Assembly (NCBI GenBank): GCA_951406725.2
Contig: OX597828.1
Coordinates: 62,744,001-62,808,000, forward strand
Source: Octopus vulgaris
Taxonomy: Eukaryota
Reading direction: 5' to 3'
Length of the DNA: 64,000 nucleotides
Shown here: in pieces, positions 1-60,150 of the stretch
How positions within the stretch are numbered: the first letter of the stretch is position 1
Layout of the letters: each line of letters begins with the position of its first letter
Program-made: the position numbers and the translations under genes
The notes under the pieces: model-generated
Seen by the model: the letters and a program-made list of their open reading frames with translations, nothing else
The model's database searches: none
Told to the model about the DNA's origin: nothing

Positions 1-293
1 AGTTTACATTGGTGGAATTTGAACTCAGAACATCTACAGGAAATACTGGTAAGCTTTAGATACTAAATGCTTTAATGCACCAAAATCTTCTTTTTCTGAA
101 TATGTCCTAAGGAAATTGAGGTGCATCTAATATGCCTGTCTATTTTTCATGCCATCAAATGCAAGTGCCCCAGCATGGTCAGTTCAATTAATGAAACCAA
201 TAAAAAAAAAATACAAAGAGTTTAGCTGACACTTGACTGAATGACAATTAACCATTCTTGGCTTAATTGAAATATCTGGTGTGTCTTTTGCAG

Positions 294-506
294 GAATCCT
301 GAAGTGGAGGTATTTGATTGGTGGTCGGAACATCCGATGGACATTAGGAGCTGACAATATTTGCTTCACAAAGTATTGGCATTCCTTATTCTTCAGTCTT
401 GGACGTGTGGTGCCAGTATGTCGAGGGGAAGGAGTTTACCAAAAGAGTTTAGACTTTGTTTTAGATCAGTTGAATGCAGGTCAGTGGCTACACATGTTTC
501 CCGAAG
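294..506 (+). CDS. TAZ: Tafazzin (phospholipid transacylase), internal coding exon; gene starts upstream of the window
   Basis: Bounded by ttttgcag| and |gtatgt. Encodes [72 protein letters not shown], with the tafazzin RWTL-A-DICFT, VPV-RG-GVYQ and acyltransferase FPEG motifs. Confidence 0.95.
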
Positions 507-605
507 GTATGTTGTCATGGTTACTGTTGTTGTTGTCATTTTTACTCTTGTTAATGTTATTGCTACTTTTACTCTCTCTTTTTTCTCCTTATTTCTTCTT
601 TTCAG

Positions 606-647
606 GAAGAGTAAACCTTTCCAAAGAATTTATGCGACTGAAATGGG
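606..647 (+). CDS. TAZ: Tafazzin exon (G)[13 protein letters not shown](G)
   Basis: Bounded by ttttcag| and |gtgagt; phase 1-1; conserved RLKWG motif. Confidence 0.92.
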
Positions 648-1809
648 GTGAGTTGTTATTCTCATTGCATTGCGTCTTTGTTTTGGTGTGAGGTGGATTG
701 ACGTGAAAATTTAGACATTAACATGTAGACAGTCCCATTCACTATCACCACCATCCTTACCATCATCATCATCATCACCATTGTTTTAATGCCTGTTTTC
801 CAACGTTGTCTTTAGTGGAAGTGCTGTATGGTTCTCTCATATTCCTTGATTGTGTATCACCTCACTCACCCAAAGCTTCCAGGTCAGATATGAACCCTTT
901 ACCAATTTGTTCTGGTTTACCTTTATATTCTGACTTCAACTCACAGCAGTTGTTTACTTGGCTTCTCTCTTGTTTTCACATTTGCATTACATATCATAAT
1001 CTATCCTCAATACATTTATCTACAGTCTTTGAAGACCCTCTGCATTCACTGCTTGTATTCCTCCACCACCCTCACACACAATCACACGTATACACTCCTT
1101 CATATATATGGATCAGGCATCCACCACATTTTGTCCTCCATGTTCATTGTCCATCTTTCACTACCACACATCCTGCATCTTGGCATAAAAGCATTGATCT
1201 AAAAACAGTGATATTTGTCGAGATCCTTGCCAATAAATCATTTTCTGGCCCGTTATTTTTGAAAACAAGTAGAATAAAAAAAAAAATCTTTGAAAAACAG
1301 GTATGGGTTGGTGACTGGAAAAGCATCCAGCTATAAGACAATGTCTCAATAATGGGTATTCGTCCAACCCTTTGCAAAAACAGACAAGTTTCATTCTCAC
1401 TCATCATGCTCTATATTCCATGTCCATATTTCATCATTGTACACCTTTCATATCTTATACATGCACATACCATGTGTAGTCCACGATATTCTCTGCTCAT
1501 TACCCTACACCATCAAACAACTCCTTACACACACACACACATCACACAGTCCTCTTTATATACTGAGTATATATATATATATATATAAGTTCAGTAAAAA
1601 TTTAGTTTCAGATGAATATGATACTTAAGTTAAAGGCACCAGAATTTGGTATGGTATTATCCATATAAATCAAATGGGTGGAAAATGGAATAAGTATAAA
1701 AATGAATATTGTCAATTTAATTAAAAAATTCCATATATGGCTGAAGATTGCTCTACGTTTTAAAACTGATGTAATACTTACATTGTTTGATTAAATGAAG
1801 TAGCATGAA

Positions 1810-7944: not shown

Positions 7945-8208
7945 AGTCTTGTCCACGACTATGATTTCACTTGGCCTGACGAGTCTTCTCAAGTACAGCA
8001 AACCTCCAAAGGTCTCGATCATTTGGCATCGCCTTCATGAGACCCAATAACCAAAGATCTGGCATTACCATTTTATCTCATGTCTTCCTCTTCCACCACA
8101 GGTTCCCTCCACAGTTAGAGATCGGCACTTCTTTATGCAGCTGTCCTCATCCATACATATGATCATACCAGTGCAGTCGTCTCTCTTGCACACCACACCT
8201 GATACCTC

Positions 8209-8210
<2 letters not shown>
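7945..8210 (-). mobile_element. RTE LINE 3' fragment
   Basis: MDEDSCIKKCRSLTVEGTCG.GR matches the C-terminus of the 29118 ORF. Confidence 0.75.
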
Positions 8211-13109: not shown

Positions 13110-14954
13110 TGCTAAGGTGGCAAGCTGGCAGGATCCTTAGCTTGCCAGGCAAAATGCTTTGTGGCATTTCATCTGTCTTTGGGTTCTGAGTTCAAATTCC
13201 ACCGAGGCCGACTTTGCCTTTCATCTGTCCGGGGTCGATAAATTAAGTACCAGTGAAATACTGGGGGTCAATGTAATCAACTAGTCCCCTCCTCCAAAAT
13301 TTCAGTCCTTGTGTCTATAGTCATCATCATCATCATCATTATCCAGTGTTTTAAATCTGGGTTTTGTCCCTGTTAACGGGGGTGGCCAGATCTCCCTCAA
13401 TGCCATAGCAACCGAGCTAGGCAGGTGCAGCCCACCCCAACTTTTGGGCTGGCGGGTGCCCAGTCTCCTTTGCTATCATGAGGCTTTTTTTTGGAGCTGG
13501 ATTTTCTACGGGGAGCATGCCCTTGCTTACCCCCAACCTCCATTTCTACAAAGAGTGGTTCTGAGACCAAAGCCTCTCCCATGATTTTTAAGACATCTGG
13601 TGGAAAACTTGTTCAGGAAGGCAGGGACACTACTCTCAGAGCCCCCTCTACCATATATTAGAAAGGTTTATTATTGTTATCATTATTATTATTATTAAGG
13701 TGGTGGTGAAGTGGTAGAATGTTTTGCATGTTGGACAAAATGCTTGGTGACTTCCTTCCAAGTTCTTTATGTTCTGAGGTTAACTTTGCTTTTCATCCTT
13801 TTCAGGTCAATAAAATAAATACCAGTCGAGTGCAGGGCTCACTTCCTCCTCCCCTCAAAATTGCTGGCCTTTTTGCCAAAATTCAAGACCATTATTATCA
13901 TTATTCTTTTAACTCAAGTTTTACTGGAACTCCTGGAGTCTTGCTATACCAGCAGCCTATCGTACCATGCTACCTGTTCTTGCAACCATCAAATATTTGT
14001 TGAGGATTCCTTATTATTATTATAAGGCGGCGAGCTGGCAGAAGCGTTAGCGCGCCGGGTGAAACGCTTAACGGTATTTTGCCTGTCGCTACTTTCTGAG
14101 TTCAAATTCCGCCGAGGTTGACTTTGCCTTTCATGCTTTCGGGGTCGATAAATTAAGTACCAATTGTGTACTGGGGTCGATCTAATCGACTGGTCCACTC
14201 CCCCAAATTCCAGGCTTTGTGCCTATAGTAGAAAGGATTATTATTATTTTTAGTCCTGAGCTAGTATAATGGTCAGTGCATCAGACAAAACTGCTTAGTG
14301 GCATTTCTTCCTACTCTTTATGTTGTGAGTTCAAATACTGCTGAGGTCAACTTTGCCTATCATCCTTTGATAGTGAAGTGTTCTAGGGGGTTGATGTAAC
14401 TGACCAACCCCTCCCTGTCAAAATTTGAAACAGTTCTTTTTTTCTTATTATTCAAGGCAGAAAGGATAGCACCCATGACTTTCTGTTTTTCCAGGGTCTC
14501 CAAGAAGGTAAGAAGTTATCCTCAGACCTGAGATCTTGCCCAAATGCTTGCACAAACTAGGAAACAGATTAAGTCTCCCCCTAACCAAGATGCCAAAGGT
14601 TGGAACAAATGCAGCAGACTTCTTGCCTGATGCTAGCCATTATTCTGGTTTGCCACTATATTTTATTGACCATAAAAGATGGAAAGCAATGTTGACTTTA
14701 GGAGGAGGATTTGTAGAGAATTGGACCAAATACCACAAGGCATTTCATTTAACACTAACAATGTCACTACTCCATCATCTGAACTAGTATGATGAGAACT
14801 GGAAATAATACTGCCACACATTTTGTCAGCTGCTCTACCGATTCTACCAATCTGCTGCATGTTTGCCTGAAAATAGAAGGAAAAACGAACCATTTCATAT
14901 ACATAATCTAAGAAGATGGCACCTCACACTAAATAGAGGCAGAAAAAAGAGTTT

Positions 14955-16550
14955 TTAAATGAGGGAGAGAGTGTCTAACCCAACAAATAAAGTTAACTGC
15001 CATACAGTGGAAATCCTGATTAAGAATGAGAAAGCAACTGGACTGTTAGGTATGGTCTTAGAGATGTTTAATATCTCTGGCGAAGTGAATCTCATGCAAG
15101 TCTCCAGTGTAGACAGTGAAATAACAGAGGAAGGAGTCAAATCTAATGACCGGCTCATCTCATCTCATCTGTTGTTCACACAAAGAAAGATTTTCCAGAC
15201 AGTCACTGAATTAATTAATGTGTAAACTGATTAGGAAGAGATTCATTTATTGGGTGTCACAGATAAAAGTACTTAGCTAGAAGTAAACCTAGCTTTTGTT
15301 GACCAGGAAAAGGTCTTTGACACGGTTCTACATTCTCATGGCCTGGTGGCCATAAAGCAAAAGAAAAGTGTGGTGGTGGTGGGGAGGCAAACAAATGGTT
15401 TGTAAGAGTTTTGCAATCTATATTGAAAGGTACCATCAGGAAATTAAGAGTTAGCAAGTTCAGTGAGGAATTTAGTAGGTATGTTTGTTTATTGAAGAAT
15501 TGGTCCAAAAATATCAAGTAAAAAGTTGTTATTTTGTGAACAACAAAGTTTTTAGAAATGGCTTCAGCTCTGGAAAATTATATTAGTAAAACAGTGTCTA
15601 TAGTGACTGCTGATGGACGAATCATTGTGGGTACTTCGGAAGGTTTTGATCAGACGGTTAACTTAATCTTAGATAAAGCCATGAAAGAGTGTTTAGCTCT
15701 ACTTCTGGAGTTGAACAAGTTGTATTAGGACTATTATTGTCTTCCAAGTTGTAGCAGTGGAATTTCAAACAGGTTGTTGCTCATGGAAACAACGCCTCTA
15801 TGTTATAATCTTGGTCCCATAACTGAATCGATCAAGAATTTAGAGAACTCCCAAAGTTCGAAGCAAAACCTAGAATCAAGTGGCTTCTAAGTTAATGTAG
15901 CAAAAACTTAAGTAATGGAAGGAAAGAAAGCAGGACCCCGCTGCTATAGAAGTGACTGTGGTCAATGTGCAGAGGTTTAGGGAGAAGCTATATATGTCAA
16001 TCCTTTTGTAAGCAATAGATACATCTGAGGTGTAGTGGGATCACAGGCAAATTGACAGCATGTTTATAGACAGGGGATGGACAGGAGCCCTTCAAATACT
16101 TAAAAGGCTCTCTAGAAGTGGTTGATAGTCTTTGTTACCTAGGCGACTGAATTAGCAGGGATTTTGGAGCTAATATTATTTGGCTGCCTGTGTAAGAACA
16201 GAATGGAATAAAGTTCACATAGCTGTTTTTGTTAGCATCAAAAAGGAGTTCTCATCTCTCCGTCTCTCTCTCTCGTATCACAGATTGTATAATGCTTTTG
16301 TGCGAAGAACAATATTGCAGGATATAAAGGTGTGGGCCATGAATGCAGAAATTTCATGAAGGTGGGAAAGAAATGAGGTGAGCATGCTCCGTTGGATGGG
16401 TAAATGTTAGAGTTCGTGAATGATGGAGCATAAAGCACTTTATATGAAAGGGATTGGATGTAGAATTTTAAAGAGAAAACTACACTGGTAAGGGATGTAA
16501 AGTGAATGGAGGACGCCTGGTGTATAAAAAGTGCTGAGTGGGGGAAACGT
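14955..16550 (+). mobile_element. Old, degraded RTE-clade LINE fragment (RT region) interrupted by the LSM8 insert
   Basis: Degenerate but colinear with the LINE at 29118-31094 (equivalents of EMLKISG, EKAFD, EEFKTGC, EVVDSF.YLGD and the 3' end). Confidence 0.75.
15558..15740 (+). pseudogene. LSM8: Intronless, 3'-truncated LSM8 (U6 snRNP Sm-like protein) pseudogene
   Basis: MASALENYISKTVSIVTADGRIIVGTSEGFDQTVNLILD, then a 1-nt deletion near 15675, then SHERVFSSTSGVEQVVLGL. Very close to the metazoan LSm8 N-terminus; C-terminus and poly(A) are absent. Confidence 0.9.
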
Positions 16551-17579
16551 AATAATAATTGTTTATAAAACTGCTATAGAAATACATTTACAAAAGTAAA
16601 AGGATAATAATTCAGTAAAGTGAGCAATAAATAACTTAAAAGGTATAACAAACTTGCGCCGTTTTGTAGCAGACCAGCGAATACTTGGATATCTCTGGAT
16701 TAAGTTTATCAGACAACATGAAACAACTATCGAGTGAGGGCAAGGCTGAAGCGCAAGAACAACCAAGTACCCACATGATATTTCGGTGAGACGGGGGGAC
16801 ACCAATGATTTCTTTGCTGCTGTCAGCGGCTCAGATCTCTCGAATGCCACAAGGTTAAAAACTAAGCATCAAAAAATTACCGTGTTTTTGTGAATGTTTC
16901 ATTTAATTAACCTCCAACTCTGCCACAAGTTTAAAGATGTGTGATGGAGACAAAGAGTGACATGTCATACAAAACATTTGCACTCTAAACTGAGGAGTAT
17001 AAGTCCATTGGGCCTTTTGTCACAGTCCCAAAACAGCCTGAACAATTCCATTGACTTCAAAATCATGGGGGATTTTTTCTTTTCTACTATAAGCACAAAA
17101 ACTGAAATTTGGGGGGGGGGGGGGTAGTCGATTTCATCGACCCTAGTGCGTAACTGGTACTTATTTCATCGACCCTGAAAGAAGGAAAGGCCAAGTCGAC
17201 CTCGGCGAAATTTGAACTCAGAACGTTAGCAATGGGCGAAATACTGCTAAGCATTTCGTCCAGTGAGCTAACGATTCTGCCAGCTCGCCACCTTAAAATC
17301 GTGGGGATTTTTTTTATCCTGTCGAGGGCTCGTTTTATTTTTAGGTTTATCTCGTTGGGGTAAGATATGAAACTCAAAGAGAGTAAGGCTCTGCAGTGTC
17401 TGCAACAATTTTGTCAATAGAATAGGGAGAGTTTGTTAAGTTCAATAGTCTTGTGGAGGGAAGAATTTAATATTTTAAGAGTTCTGGAGAGAGAGGGGGA
17501 GACAGGGGAGGAAGGAAAAGAAGCAGGATCGTTACTTGAGTTCTAGTTAAGTATAATTAATAGCTTAGTTAACTAGAGA

Positions 17580-22096: not shown

Positions 22097-22810
22097 GTCA
22101 TCATCATCATCATCATTGTTTAACGTCCGCTTTCCATGCTCACATGGGTGCGAACCAGATGGCTGCACCAGGCTCCAATCTGATCTGGCAGAGTTCCTAC
22201 AGCTGGATGCCCTTCCTAACACCAGCCACTCCGAGAGTGTAGTGGGTGCTTTTACGTGCCACCTGCACACGAGCCAGTCCAGCAGAACTGGTGACAACCT
22301 TGCTCGAATGTTTTTCACGTGCCAGAAAGGTGACGCTGGTAATGATCACGCTTGAATGCTGCTTTTTACGTGCCACTGGCACGGAAGCCAGTTAGCTGCT
22401 CTGGCAATGATCACGCTCGGATATTGCTCTTAGCGCTCCACGAGCATGGATGCCAGTCATCAGATTTGATTTCGATTTCACTTGCCTCAACAGGTCTTCG
22501 CAAGCAGAGTTTAGTGTCCAATGAAGGAAAGGTATGCATAAGTGGGCTGGTTACACCCCTGGCATAGGCCACAAGGTTATGGTCTCACTTGGCTTGCCAG
22601 GTCTTCTCACGCACAGCAGTCACAAGTCATTGCCTCGTTGAGGCCTAATGTTCGATGGTCGTGCTTCACCACTTTATCCCAGGTCATCCTGGGTCTACCT
22701 CTTCCACAGGTTCCCTCAACCGCCAGGGTGTGGCACTTTTTCACACAGCTATCCTCATTCATTCTCGCCACTTGACCATACTAGCGCAGTCGTCTCTCTT
22801 GCACACCACA
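22097..22810 (-). mobile_element. RTE 3' fragment (ORF end, 3' UTR with about 3 array units, (GAT)n tail)
   Basis: Reverse-complement similarity to 30860-32537. Confidence 0.85.
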
Positions 22811-25504: not shown

Positions 25505-25748
25505 TATATATATATGTATATGTATACACGGGTGCATATATTTACATACATGCATACATAAACACATATAATCAACAGATTCTCAATAAATCCCAACTTT
25601 TTTTGCTCCTGATTCTTTAATCATTGGGTTTTTTTTTTATTTATTTCTTTTCTTCTCTCCTGCTTTTTTGCAGGTTTACTCTTCATCCACAGCTCTTTGA
25701 TGAACTGAGTACCAAGCGCTGCTCCAGCAGTTTCTGCTTTCTCGCACC

Positions 25749-25949
25749 ATGGCTTATCTTGAAGAGGAGCAGGCCAGCGAGGTGTTTACAAACTGCCATG
25801 CTAAATCTCTGCTGACCACAATGAATTTACTGCGTAAAACAAGGGTCCTGTGTGATGTCACTTTACATGTGGGTGGAATGGACTTCCCAGTCCACAGGAT
25901 AGTGTTGGCAGCTTGCAGTGATTACTTCTGTGCCATGTTCACCAATGAG
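25749..25949 (+). CDS. KLHL12: Kelch-like protein 12 (Cul3 adaptor), coding exon 1, BTB N-part; the exon itself starts at 25674
   Basis: ttttttgcag| acceptor at 25673, ATG at 25749, |gtgaga donor. Encodes [51 protein letters not shown]. Confidence 0.93.
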
Positions 25950-26453
25950 GTGAGAACTCTTTCAGTCTCTGCTGTCAGCTTTGTGAGTTAGCTGCAGCTC
26001 AGAACTGATGTTTTCATTTTCTCATCCCTTTAGTTACCATATTCATAATGATATTCGTTCACAGTGATTGATTAAAAAGTTTAACTCCCAGCTATGTGGT
26101 TTTGAGTTCAATCCCACTGAGTGGAACATTGGGCAAGTGACCTTTACTACAGTCCCAGGATGACCAAAGTCATCTGGTAGAAACTGAAACTGATGGTCGT
26201 AAATGAGTGTCACTGTCATGTAAGCAGTGTCGTTCATTTTTGATCTCTTGTGGAAAGATGTATCCTGTTGTAGGAGTAAAATATTGCCTTGCTTGGAAGA
26301 TGGTGAGGTTTGATGACAGGAAAGGCATCTGGTTGTAGAAAATCTGCCTCAGTGAATTCTGTCTGATCCATGAAAGCATGGAAAAGTGGATATTAAACAG
26401 ATGAGAGGTTGATGTTTTCTATTAATTAAACAAAATTACAAATAAATGTTTAA

Positions 26454-26674: not shown

Positions 26675-27105
26675 TTAACATGAGATGATGTGGTGATGGA
26701 TTTCCAATGTTTGATGACGAAGATTCAGTTGCTTGATCAGCTGAATTATCTGCCCCTGAATTAACATGTGTTCCACAGACACAACAGAATAGTACTGACT
26801 GTTGTTTAACCTTTTGATACTCTCTTGCCAGATATTGATCCTGGTTCTGGGACACAAACTTTCTATTTTAAAAGTGATCTTGAAACCTTCCATCAAATTT
26901 ACATTTGATTTCAGTTGATTTATATTCCAAACACCAGTTTAACAATGAAACAAAACCATTTTATTAAATTCTTTATTATCTCCAAAAATAATTGAATCAA
27001 AAGCTGTGTGTTTCAACAGAAATATGGTAACGAAAGGGTTAATATTTCTAACTTAAATGTGTTGTTTAATATTTACTTATTTAACTTTGTTGATTGTTAT
27101 TTAAG

Positions 27106-27259
27106 ATGTCTGAAAAAAGCGAATCAAAGATCCACATTCAAGGGGTTTCAGCAACTGTCATGCAAGCCCTGCTGGATTTCATCTATACCGAAACCGTCTG
27201 TGTTAATATAAGCAATGTCCAAGAATTGTTACCTGCTGCCTGCTTACTCCAGCTCACAG
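27106..27259 (+). CDS. KLHL12: KLHL12 coding exon 2 (BTB)
   Basis: Bounded by tttaag| and |gtaaga. [51 protein letters not shown](G). Confidence 0.93.
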
Positions 27260-27523
27260 GTAAGAGATGACAACAGCTTTATAAAAGTCTCCTTTTCCAA
27301 TTTACTTTCACTGCATTTTTCAATTATTATCACAGTTTTTAATTTATGCATTTTTGGAGCAGAGGAGTTGAGATTTTTAAGCAAATAAACGGTGCATGTT
27401 TGTTGGATAGATTCAGTGTGTTGATGGTGACTATACTGTATAGATACTGACTGAATAGATAGATACTGCGTGTAGATGGTGACTGGTTAGATATATAATA
27501 CACACAGCATGTAGATGTTGATG

Positions 27524-28763: not shown

Positions 28764-28832
<69 letters not shown>

Positions 28833-29117
28833 GAGAAGAAGGATTGGAAGCTTAAGGATCCTGTGAATGGACAGAGATTTAGAGACATGTTACTTGAAGC
28901 CTTTGACGAAGTAGAAGGGGATAGTGTATCACATGGGGTAGAGGACAACTGGACGTTTCTAAGGGACAACCTGCTGAGAGCCACTGACCAGATCTGTGGC
29001 TGGTGCAAAGTCCCCTCTCGTCCCAAGGTAACGTGGTGGTGGAACAGTGTCGTAGACAGGGCTATTAGAGAAAAGAGACAGACTTGGAAGCACTAGAAAA
29101 ATGGTGGTAGCAGGGAA

Positions 29118-31094
29118 TTGTATCAGACTGCTAAAAGGGAAGCTAGGAGACAGGTCTATCTAGCCAGAGGGGAAGCAGATAAGAAAAAATTTGCCAATGT
29201 TCTGCGCCGTGAGGACCAAAGACTGGAGGTGTTTCGCGTTGCAAGACAGTGTGTGAGAGAGAATTGTGATGTGGTGGGAGAGAAGTGTGTTCGCATGGAA
29301 GATGGTTCACTTGCGCTAAACGAGGATGCAAAGAGAGAGGCTTGGAGATGCCACTATGAAAGGTTGCTGAATAAAGAAAATGAATGGGATAAAGAGATTC
29401 TGCCGAATGTCGACCCAACAGAGGGACCAGCTATCCGAGTTGATAGTTCCTTAGTAGCTAAGGCAATTAGAAGCATGAAGACAGGGAAAGCCCCAGGCCC
29501 ATCAGGTATCACTGCAGAGATGCTCAAAATATCTGGTAGTGTCGGCTATAGCCTAGTCACCTGTATAGTTAATCAGGTGATACATGAAGGAGTCATACCC
29601 AATGACTGGTGTAGCAGCATAATAGTCAACTGCTACAAAGGTAAAGGTGATGCCCTAGATACAAATAATTACAGAGGTATCAAGCTGTTGGATCAGGTGA
29701 TGAAGGTTACAGAGAGGGTCATAAGCCAACTAATTAGAGAGAGAGTTAGTTTAGATGAGATGCAGCTTGGTTTCGTGCCAGGGAAAAGTACCACTGATGC
29801 TATATTCCTGGTAAGGCAGCTGCAGGAGAAATACCCAGCCAAAGATAAGGCCCTGTACCTGGCTTTTGTTGACATGGAGAAAGCCTTCGACAGGGTCCCC
29901 CGATCCCTCATATGGTGGTCAATGAGGAAACTAGGAATAGAAGAATGGTTGGTGAGAGCTGTGCAAGCCATGTACAGGGACGCTGCTAGTAAGGTGAGGG
30001 TTGGAAATGAGTACAGTGAAGAATTCCGGGTAGAGGTAGGGGTCCACCAAGGCTCAGTCCTCAGCCCCCTCCTATTTATCATAGTCCTCCAGGCAATAAC
30101 GGAGGAATTCAAGACAGGATGCCCCTGGGAGCTCCTCTATGCTGATGACCTTGCTCTAATTGCTGAGTCATTATCAGAACTGGAGAAGAGGTTTCAGGTG
30201 TGGAAGCATGGTTTAGAATCGAAGGGCCTTAGAGTCAACCTAGCTAAAACCAAAGTCGTAATAAGTAGGAAGGTAGACAAATCACAAACGCCTTCAGGTA
30301 GATGGCCCTGCTCGATCTGTAGAAAAGGTGTAGGTAGAAACTCTATAAGATGCACCAAGTGCAAGCTATGGACACATAAGAGGTGCAGCAATGTCATAGG
30401 AAGGCTAACTAGGAAGATGGTTTTTGTATGTGGCAGATGCTCGGGAGCATTAACCTCTGAAAATCTGCAGAAAACAACTTCCGTCACTTTCCAGGGGGAA
30501 AAACTAGAAGTGGTTGATAGCTTCCGTTATCTTGGTGACCAAGTCAGTAGTGGGGGTGGGTGTGCTGAAAGTGTAACAGCTAGAGTAAGAATAGCCTGGG
30601 CAAAGTTTAGGGAGCTCTTACCTCTGTTGGTGACTAAAGGCCTCTCGCTCAGAGTAAAAGGCAGACTGTATGATGCATGTGTACGAACAGCCATGCTACA
30701 TGGCAGTGAAACATGGGCCGTGACTGCTGAGGACATGCGTAAGCTCGCGAGAAATGAAGCTAGTATGCTCCGTTGGATGTGTAATGTCAGTGTTCATAGT
30801 CGACAGAGTGTAAGTACCTTGAGAGAAAAGTTGGACCTAAGAGGAATCAGATGTTGTGTGCAAGAGAGACGATTGCGCTGGTATGGTCATGTGGTGAGAA
30901 TGGATGAAGATAGGTGTGTGAAAAAGTGCCACACCCTGGCAGTTGAGGGGACCTGTGGAAGAGGTAGACCCAGGAAAACCTGGGTCGAGGTGGTGAAGCA
31001 CGACCTTCGAACTCTAGGTCTCACCAAGGAAATGACCAGAGACCGAGACCTATGGAAGTATGCTGTGCGTGAGAAGACCCGGCAAGACCAGTGA
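29118..31094 (+). CDS. RTE LINE reverse transcriptase ORF, 658 aa and N-truncated, with an internal PHD-type finger
   Basis: Uninterrupted frame with non-LTR RT motifs and a C4HC3 pattern at 30309-30440. Confidence 0.85.
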   Translation: MYQTAKREARRQVYLARGEADKKKFANVLRREDQRLEVFRVARQCVRENCDVVGEKCVRMEDGSLALNEDAKREAWRCHYERLLNKENEWDKEILPNVDPTEGPAIRVDSSLVAKAIRSMKTGKAPGPSGITAEMLKISGSVGYSLVTCIVNQVIHEGVIPNDWCSSIIVNCYKGKGDALDTNNYRGIKLLDQVMKVTERVISQLIRERVSLDEMQLGFVPGKSTTDAIFLVRQLQEKYPAKDKALYLAFVDMEKAFDRVPRSLIWWSMRKLGIEEWLVRAVQAMYRDAASKVRVGNEYSEEFRVEVGVHQGSVLSPLLFIIVLQAITEEFKTGCPWELLYADDLALIAESLSELEKRFQVWKHGLESKGLRVNLAKTKVVISRKVDKSQTPSGRWPCSICRKGVGRNSIRCTKCKLWTHKRCSNVIGRLTRKMVFVCGRCSGALTSENLQKTTSVTFQGEKLEVVDSFRYLGDQVSSGGGCAESVTARVRIAWAKFRELLPLLVTKGLSLRVKGRLYDACVRTAMLHGSETWAVTAEDMRKLARNEASMLRWMCNVSVHSRQSVSTLREKLDLRGIRCCVQERRLRWYGHVVRMDEDRCVKKCHTLAVEGTCGRGRPRKTWVEVVKHDLRTLGLTKEMTRDRDLWKYAVREKTRQDQ

Positions 31095-34877: not shown

Positions 34878-35466
34878 TATGGATGAGGACAGCTGTGTGA
34901 AAAAGTGTCACACCCTAGCAGTAGAAGGAACCTGTGGAAGAGGTAGACCCAGGAAGACCTGGGATGAGGTGGTGAAGCATGACCTTCGAATGTTGGGCTT
35001 CATGGAGGCGATGACAAGTGATCGAGACCTTTGGAGATATGCTGTGCTTGAGAAGACCTGGCAAGCCAAGTGAGACTGTAACTGTGGCCTATGCCAGTGC
35101 AGCAAAACCAACCCTTTAAGAGTACCCTTCAATCATTGGGCAATAAACTGTGCTTGCGAAGACCTGTTGAGTCAAGTGAAGTCATTGCCATGGCTGATGC
35201 CAGTACCACCTGACTGGCATGCAAAAAACACCATTCAAGCATGGTCGATGCCAGTACCGCCTGACTGGCCCTCATGCTGGTGGCACATAAAAAGCATCCA
35301 CTACACCCTTGGAATGGTTGGTGTTAGAAAGAACATCCAGCTGTAGAAACCTTGCCAGATCGGATTGGAGCCTGGTACAGCCTTCTGGCTTGCCAGTCCT
35401 CAGTCAAACTGTTCAACCCATGCCAGCATGGAAAGCAGACGTTAAACAATGATGGTGATGATGATG
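34878..35466 (+). mobile_element. RTE 3' fragment with (GAT)n tail
   Basis: MDEDSCVKKCHTLAVEGTCGRGRPRKTW..EKTWQAK*, then the shared 3' UTR. Confidence 0.88.
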
Positions 35467-57269: not shown

Positions 57270-57419
57270 TATTAAATAATATATGTACACACACACACAT
57301 TTACATCTATATATAAATGTATGTATAATATATGTATATAATGATCTTTTGCTTTTTACATTTGCTATTTTTTTGGTCTGTTTTAGCACAGCATCTCACC
57401 ATTCATTGCAGTTCTTCAT

Positions 57420-60150
57420 CCGCTTTGTGAGGCTCACCATCCAAAGATCAAGTATCACTTCTCACCATGTTTTTTATGTTCTTCTTCACTAGACTCCTTT
57501 CACTTGCCTGGATTGACATTTTTTTCACTCACCGAACTATTGTTCATTTTACACATCATGTCTCCATTAATGGCACACTCTTCTCTCTTGTACTTTCTTC
57601 TCTTTCATACACAAAAGCTAATGCCTCCATTTCCCAGTTTTTCTCTCACCACACTTCTGCTTTGTCATTCAGACATGCAAACATTTACACATCCAACAGT
57701 GCAAGCTCACCTCATCTCTTTCCATCGTTCGCAACATTCCCCACATCCAATGCATGTACATAAACATCATACAATATGCCCTTCACTTAGAGAATCCCTT
57801 TGTTGACAGCAGAGGTAATAGCTCCCTAAACCTTTTCTACTGATCTTTACTCTGGCTTTTCCAACATTCATCTCCTTTACTAATTTTGTTGCCTGGTTAA
57901 CAGAAGCTTTCAACTGCCTCTTACTAGACTTCTAAGCATTTGAAAAATCTCCCTTTCTTAGGTTCCATTACTGCTAATTATTGCTGTGTATTTATTGTTC
58001 CTTACAAAAATCCTTTTCTGTCAACCTTCCTCAGACCTCACTTCAGTTTTTGTGTAGTATTGCTAGTGTGTAGTAATTGCTATTACATTATAGAGTTCCT
58101 GCTTGCTTCCTTTTTGCATATTGAGTATGACCAGTTCCTAGTTGATACTAGTGTTCTGTTTTCTTTTCTGCTAATGAAGAATATCATCTTTGGTTAATTG
58201 CTCTTCTTTGGCTCTCCTGATTCTTGATGTTGCTTCCATGTTTTTAATATTTCTTCTAATACTTTGACCGATTTGGTTATGAGAACCGGAACATTGACTA
58301 CAGACAGTCTTGAAACCCTCTTTTATTGACTGGAGGGAACTGCAATAAATAGGAAGGGACTGAGGACTAAGCCCCAATGGACACCAATCTGCACACCTTA
58401 ACGAACGTATGTCCCATTCTTACTTTCTTGGTAACACACCTGTACATGGCATGCATTGCTTTTGCAAACTATTCGACGACACTCAGACAAGGAAGTATGC
58501 TATTCTACCAGAAGCTCTCTCCAACTCCCTGATGCTTGCTGGTTTGTATTTTGACTAAGAACTTCAGTATTCTTAAAGGAGAATGGCAATTCCTCATCAT
58601 AACAGAAATCCAAACCTACATCTGGTTTAGCTCTACCATAACTCTCTCTCTCTCTCTCTCTCTCTCCTACTTTCTTCATCAATTTCTTGTTTCTTGGCTG
58701 CTTCTTTTAAAGCATCTCCCTGGCCCTTGCAGCTGTTCACAATGATGCCGCTACTCCAGCCAAAGCCAATCCATTACTGCACCTGTCTCCACACCCCTTC
58801 ATTAACTGTGCAAGTAATCTGAATATCTCTTTTGCCTTTTACTTTTTTCAGTCATTGAACCATGGCCATGCTGGTGTACCACCTGGAAGTGTTTTAGTCA
58901 AACAAATCCCCCCACTGCCTGTACTTGTGTTTTTTTTAAGCCTGGTACTTATTCTATTGGTCTGTTTTGTTGAACTGCTAAGTTACAGGGTTGTAAACAA
59001 ACCAACACCAGTTGTGAAGGGGCTGGAGGGGGACAACATTGACACAAAGACACACAAACATTATATATATATATATATATATATGATAGGCTTCTATTCA
59101 GTTGCCATTTACCAGATTCACTCAAAAGGCACTGGTAAGCCTGGGGCTATTATAGAAGACACTTGCCTAAGGTACCATGTGGTGGGACTGAACTCAAAAC
59201 TGTGCTGTTGCAAAGTAAGCTACTTAACCTATTTGACTGGTTATTTTAAGTATTTCATCCACTTTTCCTGATAGACCTGCTGAATTTTTGCCTTCATATC
59301 GTTAATGGCTTGACCCTTTCTAACATGTAGCAATCAACCTCAACAAATGATCCTTCTGTTGCAAACCCTTCATTTTCTCACACATTCTTCTTCGTCAGTA
59401 ATTGCTCCAAGCATCATTTCTGTAGTTTCTCTTTCATCTCAAAATAAGTGTGAATCATTGATGGCAGCTTTATCTCGTATCCGAGTATTTATTTTCTTCT
59501 TTGCTGAATGCTTCTTTAATGATGATGCCATTGCTGACTCTGTAGACCAGTGGTTCCCAAACTTTTTCAGGCTGCCGCCCCCTTGGCACCCAGCCCACCT
59601 TCCTACCACCCCACCCCAACAAACAGAGACCCCTTTCTGAAGTAAATTCAAAGCAACTGTATTTCACAAATAAAACTTAACCTAATGAACCTTATCGCTC
59701 CACTTTTCTTCAATTTCCCCTTGAAACTCCCCCCCCCCCCCATGGGAGCAATACCGCCCACTTTGGTAACCCCTGCTGTAGACTAATTCTTGCATAGAAG
59801 AGTTGATGGCATTTTATTGCATGGTAATTTTGGTGGAGGATGAGGTTGATTTTGTTTTGGATTTCTTCCTTTTCTCTTCTGGTGGCCTCAAAGATTTTGG
59901 TTCCAATGGTGGTGGAACGCTGCCACTTGGTATGGTCTCAGGCTTGTGTTTTGAATAATTTGGGCTCCAATTCCTGTGGCTTTTAGTATTGCTTTTACTG
60001 AATACACCATTATTATTCCAGTAGCATTTTTTACCAACAACATCCTGATTTACATCAACATATTAATTTCCATTTCTGATTCCTGCAGGAATATTCTAAC
60101 ATTGAGGCAAACCTCTTACTTTTCACTTAGCTGCACCATTATTTCATGAA
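57420..60150 (-). mobile_element. Old RTE LINE relic with nested SINE, hAT MITE and a foreign insert
   Basis: Colinear remnants of NQDVVG.KC, SGIIVNSCKGQGDA, the VGVHQGSVLSP-like segment and FRELLPLL..KG. Confidence 0.7.
59548..59775. mobile_element. hAT-family MITE
   Basis: TIRs CAGTGGTTCCCAAA and TTTGGTAACCCCTG; perfect 8-bp TSD CTGTAGAC at 59540-59547 and 59776-59783. Confidence 0.92.

What the first reader, a model, noticed from the sequence alone, without database searches (positions are those of the whole stretch)
15480..15760. LSM8 mRNA fragment embedded in the RT region of an RTE LINE, with no poly(A) or TSD and a microhomology junction
Seen: RTE sequence runs to ..gaggaatttagtaggt (~15480). 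About 75 nt of non-RTE leader (putative 5' UTR) follows, then intronless LSM8 codons 1 to ~60. RTE resumes at tattgt|cttccaag..gaatttcaaacaggttgt (FIIVLQAITEEFKTGC equivalent). About 30 nt of LINE (the HQGSVLSP equivalent) is missing. The 3' junction can be read as either LSM8 (GLYIV) or LINE (FIIV). Established: ordinary retrocopies are 5'-truncated and polyadenylated; this one is the opposite. Inference: either a double template switch during reverse transcription, or later cDNA-templated break repair primed by microhomology. The LSM8 part looks less decayed than the LINE, which favours the second.
Basis: partly seen in the sequence, partly recalled or inferred. Interest (0 to 1): 0.7.

Follow-up and report, generated by a model that had tools for sequence, protein, structure and literature searches.

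The report
Tailless LSM8 mRNA patch inside LINE
A 243-base piece of spliced LSM8 messenger RNA, cut short at both ends and without a poly(A) tail, sits inside a heavily decayed LINE retrotransposon of a likely octopus genome; it was likely pasted in much later by reverse transcription primed at a DNA break, a known kind of pseudogene.

Summary
Window 15492-15734 is a 243-nt copy of LSM8 mRNA (66 nt of leader, codons 1-59) with 7 substitutions and a 1-nt frameshift against the parental transcript. It joins two exons that an intron separates in the parental gene, so it is RNA-derived. It is cut at both ends: at least 38 nt of leader are also missing. There is no poly(A), at most a 4-bp duplication, and only 3 nt of 3' microhomology. 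The flanks are one colinear RTE-type LINE copy. That copy changed 28 of 93 conserved second codon positions and holds 8 stops; the LSM8 piece differs from its parent by 2.9%. The piece therefore arrived long after the LINE died, which rules out a template switch during the LINE's own insertion. The 34-nt LINE gap may be an older deletion just upstream, because the flanks close in frame without loss. The same chimera is in a second, closely related organism label; no empty site was seen. Best reading: an internally primed, doubly truncated retrocopy (tailless or class 2 templated insertion). This is a known kind, and its position in a LINE is probably incidental.

The parts
14914..15491 (+). 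Decayed RTE-type LINE, left part (RT region; young-copy residues about 127-327, with a 34-nt gap near its right end)
   Evidence: DNA alignment to the young copy at 29097-31094, tblastn, frameshift-aware alignment, MAFFT. The RTE label is recalled; the calls show RT, plus endonuclease and PHD-like domains in relatives.
15481..15491 (.). Ambiguous left junction: either LINE L-F-I codons (15485-15493) or an inverted copy of the 10 mRNA bases just upstream of the insert (15481-15490, 9 of 10), or LINE bases that happened to pair with that mRNA stretch
   Evidence: in-frame closure; Leu-Phe-A background 119 of 63,993 + strand positions. (minus-strand match at 15481-15490; 17 matches in the 64-kb window on both strands, 10.4 expected from shuffles).
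15492..15557 (+). LSM8 5' untranslated leader, last 66 nt; at least 38 nt further upstream in the mRNA are absent
   Evidence: X12 record 2 aligns from its base 39 at window 15492 and has a 38-nt loose end before it.
15558..15588 (+). LSM8 coding part of the first exon (c.1-31)
   Evidence: genomic contigs X7 record 7 and X8 record 16 match 15492-15588 and then run on unlike the window. One search gives the c. position.
15589..15734 (+). LSM8 next exon, c.32-178, joined without the intron; 1-nt deletion at 15674; changes L27S, K28E and I34V against the parent
   Evidence: mRNA contiguous; X8 record 17 starts at 15589; an unlisted contig must cover 15589-15618.
15732..15734 (+). 3-nt microhomology shared by the mRNA end and the LINE
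15735..16551 (+). Decayed RTE-type LINE, right part (young-copy residues 328-595; 7 stops, 5 frameshifts)
   Evidence: X7 record 9 and X8 record 18 cover 15705-16060.

Best explanation
A 243-nt internal fragment of spliced LSM8 mRNA lies inside a heavily decayed LINE copy, and it was likely inserted long after that LINE died, likely when a reverse transcriptase acting in trans primed on the mRNA internally at a broken or nicked DNA end. The steps are as follows. (1) Shown: the template was spliced mRNA. (2) Shown: the host LINE was already decayed. (3) Inferred: the bottom-strand 3' end paired with the mRNA over about 3 nt at codon 59 and primed cDNA synthesis, which explains the missing poly(A). 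(4) Inferred: synthesis stopped 243 nt later and was joined to the left end by end joining over about 2 nt, leaving 0-4 bp of duplication; pairing of the left end with the next 10 mRNA bases may have set that stop. (5) Inferred: the enzyme came from one of the active octopus LINE families (RTE, CR1, Dong-R4, L1-Tx1) or another retroelement; which one cannot be told. The product has no known function and decays as a pseudogene.
For: Intron lost exactly at c.31/32: genomic contigs in 2 of 2 DNA-type runs stop at 15588, and the mRNA contigs in 2 of 2 RNA-type runs run through. The depth sums fit a parental contig entering at 15589. Octopus isoform P0023 lacks two residues at this spot, which fits an alternative acceptor 6 nt downstream. 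Truncated at both ends: 38 nt of leader are missing, and the mRNA runs on 255 or more nt past 15734. Age gap: 7 of 243 vs 28 of 93; 8 stops in 385 codons against 1.2-1.7 expected at d = 0.025-0.03 (P at most 4e-4). No poly(A) and no long TSD. The flanks close in frame with no net loss, which a later deletion would rarely reproduce. All three listed non-synonymous differences and the frameshift are on the copy's side, since the parent's residues match P0022. A LINE copy with a 665-codon open RT frame lies in the same window, and recently active LINE families are reported in Octopus vulgaris (PMC13282606, PMC9115989; passages).
Against: No empty allele was seen (table 5: no joints in 4 runs), so the target-site outcome is reconstructed, not observed. 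The microhomologies (2 nt and 3 nt) are within chance (16-22% and 5-8%). The clean-site reading needs an unrelated 34-nt deletion within 15 nt of the junction, about 4-10% by chance. Indel density does not separate the two ages (Fisher p 1.0 and 0.16). The intron's GT/AG letters were not shown in the output.
Confidence: 0.72

Rival explanations
1. It began as an ordinary target-primed retrocopy with a poly(A) tail, a TSD and a tiny 5' inversion (twin priming). A later deletion then removed the LSM8 3' part, the tail, the TSD and about 35-40 nt of LINE, ending at the 3-nt microhomology.
For: 15481-15490 is the reverse complement of the 10 mRNA bases immediately before the insert at 9 of 10 positions. 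That is the geometry of a twin-primed inversion (PMC2912911, passages). The host LINE shows three in-frame gaps of 39-75 nt, so deletions do occur here.
Against: The same bases read as the LINE's invariant L-F plus the first base of I, in frame with the right flank (L and F are present in 120 of 120 relatives). That implies no LINE loss at the junction. The deletion would need to be several hundred bases long and to predate the split of organisms A and D, which share the 3' junction.
Confidence: 0.15
2. The piece is a DNA patch copied from an older intronless LSM8 pseudogene elsewhere in the genome, so this event itself needed no reverse transcription.
For: It would give the same lack of tail and TSD. 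Ono et al. note that non-RT capture cannot be excluded for many inserts (PMC4516963, passages).
Against: In X8 the depth over 15492-15588 is fully explained by two contigs, this copy (22.5) and the parental exon (23.1), and no third copy appears at 80% or more likeness. No second copy lies in the window. Contigs drop rare variants, so this is not proof.
Confidence: 0.06
3. The LINE's reverse transcriptase jumped to LSM8 mRNA and back during the insertion of the host LINE (double template switch).
For: The piece has the same orientation as the LINE, and LINE sequence is missing near the junction. LINE-mRNA chimeras made in one event are known (PMC13174262, passages).
Against: Both parts would be the same age, but they differ about tenfold (2.9% vs 30%). 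A probable orthologue of the LINE in organism E has no gap and no listed difference at three of the LINE's stops, so those stops are likely older than the A/E split (one contig of depth 2.8, so weak). No paralogous chimera was laid.
Confidence: 0.02
4. The piece is a DNA-level duplication of part of the LSM8 gene.
For: None beyond the high identity to the parent.
Against: Parental genomic contigs diverge from the window at 15588 (286 and 203 further letters) and upstream of 15492 (316 and 82 letters), whereas the mRNA is continuous.
Confidence: 0.01

Closest known systems
Class 2 templated sequence insertion (Onozawa and Aplan, PMC5110952) and RT-product-mediated break repair (Ono et al., PMC4516963)
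   Same: A partial spliced cDNA of about 200-800 nt, with no poly(A), no TSD of 5 bp or more, short microhomology and germline inheritance.
   Different: Those cases are human polymorphisms or induced breaks in mouse zygotes. This one is an older insertion in a mollusc, seen in two organism labels. No break was observed here.
Tailless retropseudogenes (Noll et al., PMC5322556)
   Same: 3' truncation without a tail, and complementarity of the target to the RNA's last bases (2-18 nt there, 3 nt here). Doubly truncated forms from long RNAs are said to be common.
   Different: Their clear cases carry 8-35 nt TSDs, A-rich priming sites and the therian L1 target motif. Here the TSD is 0-4 bp and the enzyme is unknown.
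Non-classical, endonuclease-independent L1 insertion (Sen et al., PMC1920257)
   Same: Truncated 3' end, no tail and no TSD; 18 of 21 loci had target deletions.
   Different: The template there is L1 RNA, here a cellular mRNA. The target deletion here is uncertain.
Single-event LINE-RNA chimeras (Law and Burns, PMC13174262)
   Same: mRNA sequence in the same orientation beside LINE sequence.
   Different: Those are bipartite, 5'-fused and of the same age as the LINE. This is a nested, much younger insertion.

Membership tests
Processed pseudogene (retrocopy) | Exact loss of a parental intron | tested here: met
   parental genomic contigs end at 15588 and begin at 15589; mRNA and window are continuous. 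One intron is spanned; the depth sums show no other between c.32 and c.178 in X8.
Processed pseudogene (retrocopy) | No parental genomic sequence beyond the transcript | tested here: met
   the match begins inside the leader, 38 nt after the mRNA contig's start.
Canonical target-primed retrocopy | 3' poly(A) tail and intact 3' end | tested here: not met
Canonical target-primed retrocopy | Target-site duplication of about 7-20 bp (7-15 bp for RTE per PMC6007223) | tested here: not met
   the longest repeat across the junctions is 6 nt, and 3 of these are mRNA-derived; at most 4 bp fit the reconstructed site.
Class 2 templated sequence insertion / RT-mediated break repair | No TSD of 5 bp or more and no poly(A) | tested here: met
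Class 2 templated sequence insertion / RT-mediated break repair | End-joining marks (microhomology, microdeletion, added bases) | tested here: inconclusive
   2 nt and 3 nt of microhomology, within chance; the deletion may be older.
Class 2 templated sequence insertion / RT-mediated break repair | Empty pre-insertion allele known | tested here: inconclusive
   no joint in 4 runs; no outgroup genome is held.
Class 2 templated sequence insertion / RT-mediated break repair | Arose at a pre-existing double-strand break rather than an endonuclease nick | not testable with these tools
   Inferred only from the lack of a TSD.
Tailless retropseudogene | 3' truncation with the target complementary to the RNA end | tested here: met
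   3 nt shared; weak on its own.
Tailless retropseudogene | Flanking TSD of 8-35 nt | tested here: not met
Single-event LINE-mRNA chimera (template switch) | Both parts of the same age | tested here: not met
Twin-primed 5' inversion | Inverted segment matching the RNA just upstream of the sense segment | tested here: inconclusive
   9 of 10 at the predicted place, but the same bases read as LINE L-F-I. The motif length was chosen after seeing the match.
RTE clade LINE (host element) | RT phylogeny places it in the RTE clade | not tested
   No tree with named references was built. The label is recalled. RVT_1 plus a PHD-like finger and relatives of about 1,050 aa with endonuclease, RT and PHD fit the 1,109-aa RTE-2_OV described in PMC9115989 (passages).

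The most novel reading that the evidence does not exclude
One LSM8 mRNA molecule bridged both ends of a germline break. The right end primed reverse transcription through a 3-nt match. The left end annealed over 10 nt (nine Watson-Crick pairs and one G-T wobble) just upstream, was not extended, and fixed where the cDNA stopped: an abortive twin priming on a cellular mRNA. If general, octopus LINE reverse transcriptases routinely patch breaks with internal mRNA pieces, and cephalopod genomes hold a large, uncatalogued class of tailless retrocopies.
Probability: 0.2. Interest if true: 0.5.

Novelty: new member of a known kind. Interest (0 to 1): 0.24.

Why it matters
As a single locus it is a dead pseudogene fragment with no sign of function. 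It is a clean, datable example of an mRNA-templated insertion without a tail in a mollusc, where I found no survey of retrocopies (searches; only the top listings were seen). It could serve as a presence/absence marker for octopus relationships. It would matter more if a genome-wide scan showed that tailless, doubly truncated copies are the usual retrocopy form in cephalopods, because that bears on how non-L1 LINE enzymes pick up host mRNAs.

Tried and rejected
(1) Whole-genome search: no genome is held for this window. (2) Empty allele or orthologue: none among the 4 runs laid, of 24 listed. X7 has no cover on most of 15161-15490, which proves nothing. I suspected that the 0.66 word shares meant empty sites; X7 and X8 both carry the insert. 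(3) Fossil A-to-I editing: two copy-specific changes are A-to-G and recode (K28E, I34V). The share is not above chance (P 0.1-0.3), and both sites have a 5' G, which ADAR disfavours (recalled); rejected. (4) Indel density as an age test was uninformative. (5) No direct repeat of 7 nt or more was found around the outer ends of the host LINE. (6) Tandem repeats: nothing relevant. (7) X12 record 1 (15229-15464, depth 2.7) may be pre-mRNA or DNA carry-over and is not evidence of transcription. (9) Earlier findings of this scan: nothing returned. (10) A second old LINE copy (58270-58450, minus strand) did not settle the ancestral codons at the junction. No supplements were read.

Full report
Source and setting. 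No genome is held for this window. The organism is likely an octopus: the best protein match of the LSM8 piece is a cluster of Argonauta hians, Octopus vulgaris and O. bimaculoides proteins (88% over 41 residues). The site lies between acyltransferase exons near 245-690 and the first BTB exon of a Kelch-type gene at 25.7 kb. Whether it is intronic was not resolved.

The insert. The frame from ATG 15558 matches the LSM domain and human LSm8. tblastn with Octopus LSM8 covers residues 1-45 in one frame and 36-56 in the next. I laid 4 of the 24 runs listed on 15161-16060. An RNA-type contig of organism A (X12 record 2, 645 nt, depth 87) matches only 15492-15734, with 7 substitutions and one gap. 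It has 38 more letters upstream and continues downstream as Y-I-I-R-G-D-N-V-A-V. An RNA-type contig of organism E matches 15501-15734 with 9 substitutions and the same gap. The insert is therefore an internal 243-nt piece: 66 nt of leader and c.1-178.

RNA origin. In both DNA-type runs a contig matches 15492-15588 and then runs on unlike the window (286 letters in X7, 203 in X8). In X8 another contig starts exactly at 15589. Re-adding the depth bins shows that unlisted contigs must cover 15589-15618 and 15705-15734, with no residue between. These are the parental gene's entry and exit, so one intron at c.31/32 is spanned and lost. The GT/AG letters were not among the rows shown. Isoform P0023 lacks two residues at that place, which fits an alternative acceptor 6 nt downstream.

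The host. A younger copy of the same LINE family lies at 29097-31094 with a 665-codon open frame (RVT_1, E 3e-31). The old copy aligns to it colinearly on both sides, with 385 codons aligned, 8 stops and 7 frameshifts. Of 147 positions that are at least 95% invariant among 120 relatives, 93 align in the host copy, and 28 of these changed at the second codon position (30%, CI 21-40%). Misalignment may inflate this. The LSM8 piece differs from its parent at 7 of 243 sites (2.9%, CI 1.2-5.8%; Fisher p 1e-11). At d = 0.025-0.03 only 1.2-1.7 stops are expected (P of 8 or more is at most 4e-4). Indel density did not separate the two ages (p 1.0 and 0.16). The insert is thus much younger than its host, which refutes a double template switch. 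With the calibration quoted in PMC13282606 (distance 0.09 = 25 million years; passage seen), 2-3% would be roughly 6-8 million years and the host several tens of millions; this is rough inference.

Distribution. Organism D carries the same chimera: X8 record 15 spans 15161-15618 with 2 substitutions and a 3-nt gap, and record 18 covers 15705-16060. X7 (organism A, another sample) covers the right junction. In both, only 30 letters lie left of the right junction, one short of the tool's bridging rule. However, the adjoining contigs carry the copy's own alleles. No joint skipping the insert was listed in any of the 4 runs. The best two runs hold 0.97 and 0.91 of the 74 sampled words, so the chimera is not an assembly artefact (the first may be the source sample). 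One low-depth contig of organism E (15844-16045, 14 differences in 202, no gap) is probably the orthologous LINE but does not reach the junction.

Junctions. On the right, the mRNA match ends at 15734 and the LINE match starts at 15732, so 3 nt are shared. There is no A tract. On the left there are two readings. First, 15485-15493 aligns to the LINE's L-F-I codons, and the flanks close in frame with 6 of 7 residues equal to the young copy. The background for such a 7-mer is 119 of 63,993 positions. Then nothing was lost at the site, 0-4 bp were duplicated, 2 nt are shared on the left, and the 34-nt gap is a separate deletion just upstream, a 4-10% coincidence. Second, 15481-15490 is the reverse complement of the 10 mRNA bases immediately before the insert at 9 of 10 positions. 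There are 17 such matches in the window on both strands, and one sits at the predicted place (the motif was chosen after the fact). That is the geometry of twin priming (PMC2912911, passages). Both can be true if the LINE end paired with the mRNA without being extended.

Mechanism. Shown: spliced template, truncation at both ends, no tail, no long TSD, and late arrival in a dead LINE. Inferred: internal priming at a broken or nicked end through the 3-nt match, reverse transcription in trans, and end joining on the left (0.72). The main rival is an ordinary tailed retrocopy that later lost its 3' part (0.15), which needs the inversion reading. A DNA patch from another retrocopy gets 0.06, since only two copies are seen in the X8 depth. 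The copy decays like a pseudogene: a frameshift and three amino-acid changes, with the one listed silent difference shared with organism E. LINEs make up 12.9% of the O. vulgaris genome (PMC13282606, passage), so landing in one needs no special cause.

Comparison with what is known. Class 2 templated insertions lack TSD and poly(A) and show end-joining marks, and spliced cDNAs are among their templates (PMC5110952; parts 1-2 of 4 read). Partial spliced Pcnt and Inadl cDNAs without tails were captured at breaks in mouse zygotes (PMC4516963, passages). Tailless retropseudogenes are primed internally through 2-18 nt of complementarity but carry 8-35 nt TSDs (PMC5322556, passages). Non-classical L1 insertions lack tail and TSD, and 18 of 21 have target deletions (PMC1920257, passages). 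Single-event LINE-mRNA chimeras are 5'-fused and contemporaneous (PMC13174262, passages). RTE TSDs are mostly 7-15 bp (PMC6007223, passage). The locus works like the first two and meets their testable features except for a known empty allele; it is not a canonical retrocopy. Searches for cephalopod retrocopies or an LSM8 pseudogene in octopus (top 20, 20 and 10 listings seen; subscription journals and supplements not covered) showed no such report. Look-ups in this scan's earlier findings returned nothing.

Verdict. The feature is real and correctly spotted, but it is a new member of a known kind with no sign of function. Interest 0.24.

Noticed in passing
window 28812-31094 (+): Young, apparently 5'-truncated LINE of the same family, with a 665-codon open RT frame and one stop at 29094-29096 upstream. 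It lies between the BTB and BACK exons of a Kelch-type gene, so likely in its intron; a candidate recently active family.
   Followed up: partly
window 25704-48604 (+): Exons of a BTB-BACK-Kelch gene (BTB 25704-25988 and 27094-27267, BACK 36539, Kelch 48185).
   Followed up: no
window 245-690 (+): Acyltransferase exons with a short intron (Pfam PF01553); tafazzin-like by recall.
   Followed up: no
window 15589-15594: The six bases after the lost intron end in AG and explain the two-residue-shorter Octopus LSM8 isoform (P0023) as use of an alternative acceptor; the copy derives from the longer isoform.
   Followed up: partly
window 15639 and 15657: Two copy-specific A-to-G changes that recode K28E and I34V; they could be captured RNA edits, but are not above chance.
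   Followed up: partly
window 57369-58818 (-), 34879-35064 (+), 22619-22810 (-), 7976-8209 (-): Further decayed or 3'-end fragments of the same LINE family.
   Followed up: no
   Followed up: no
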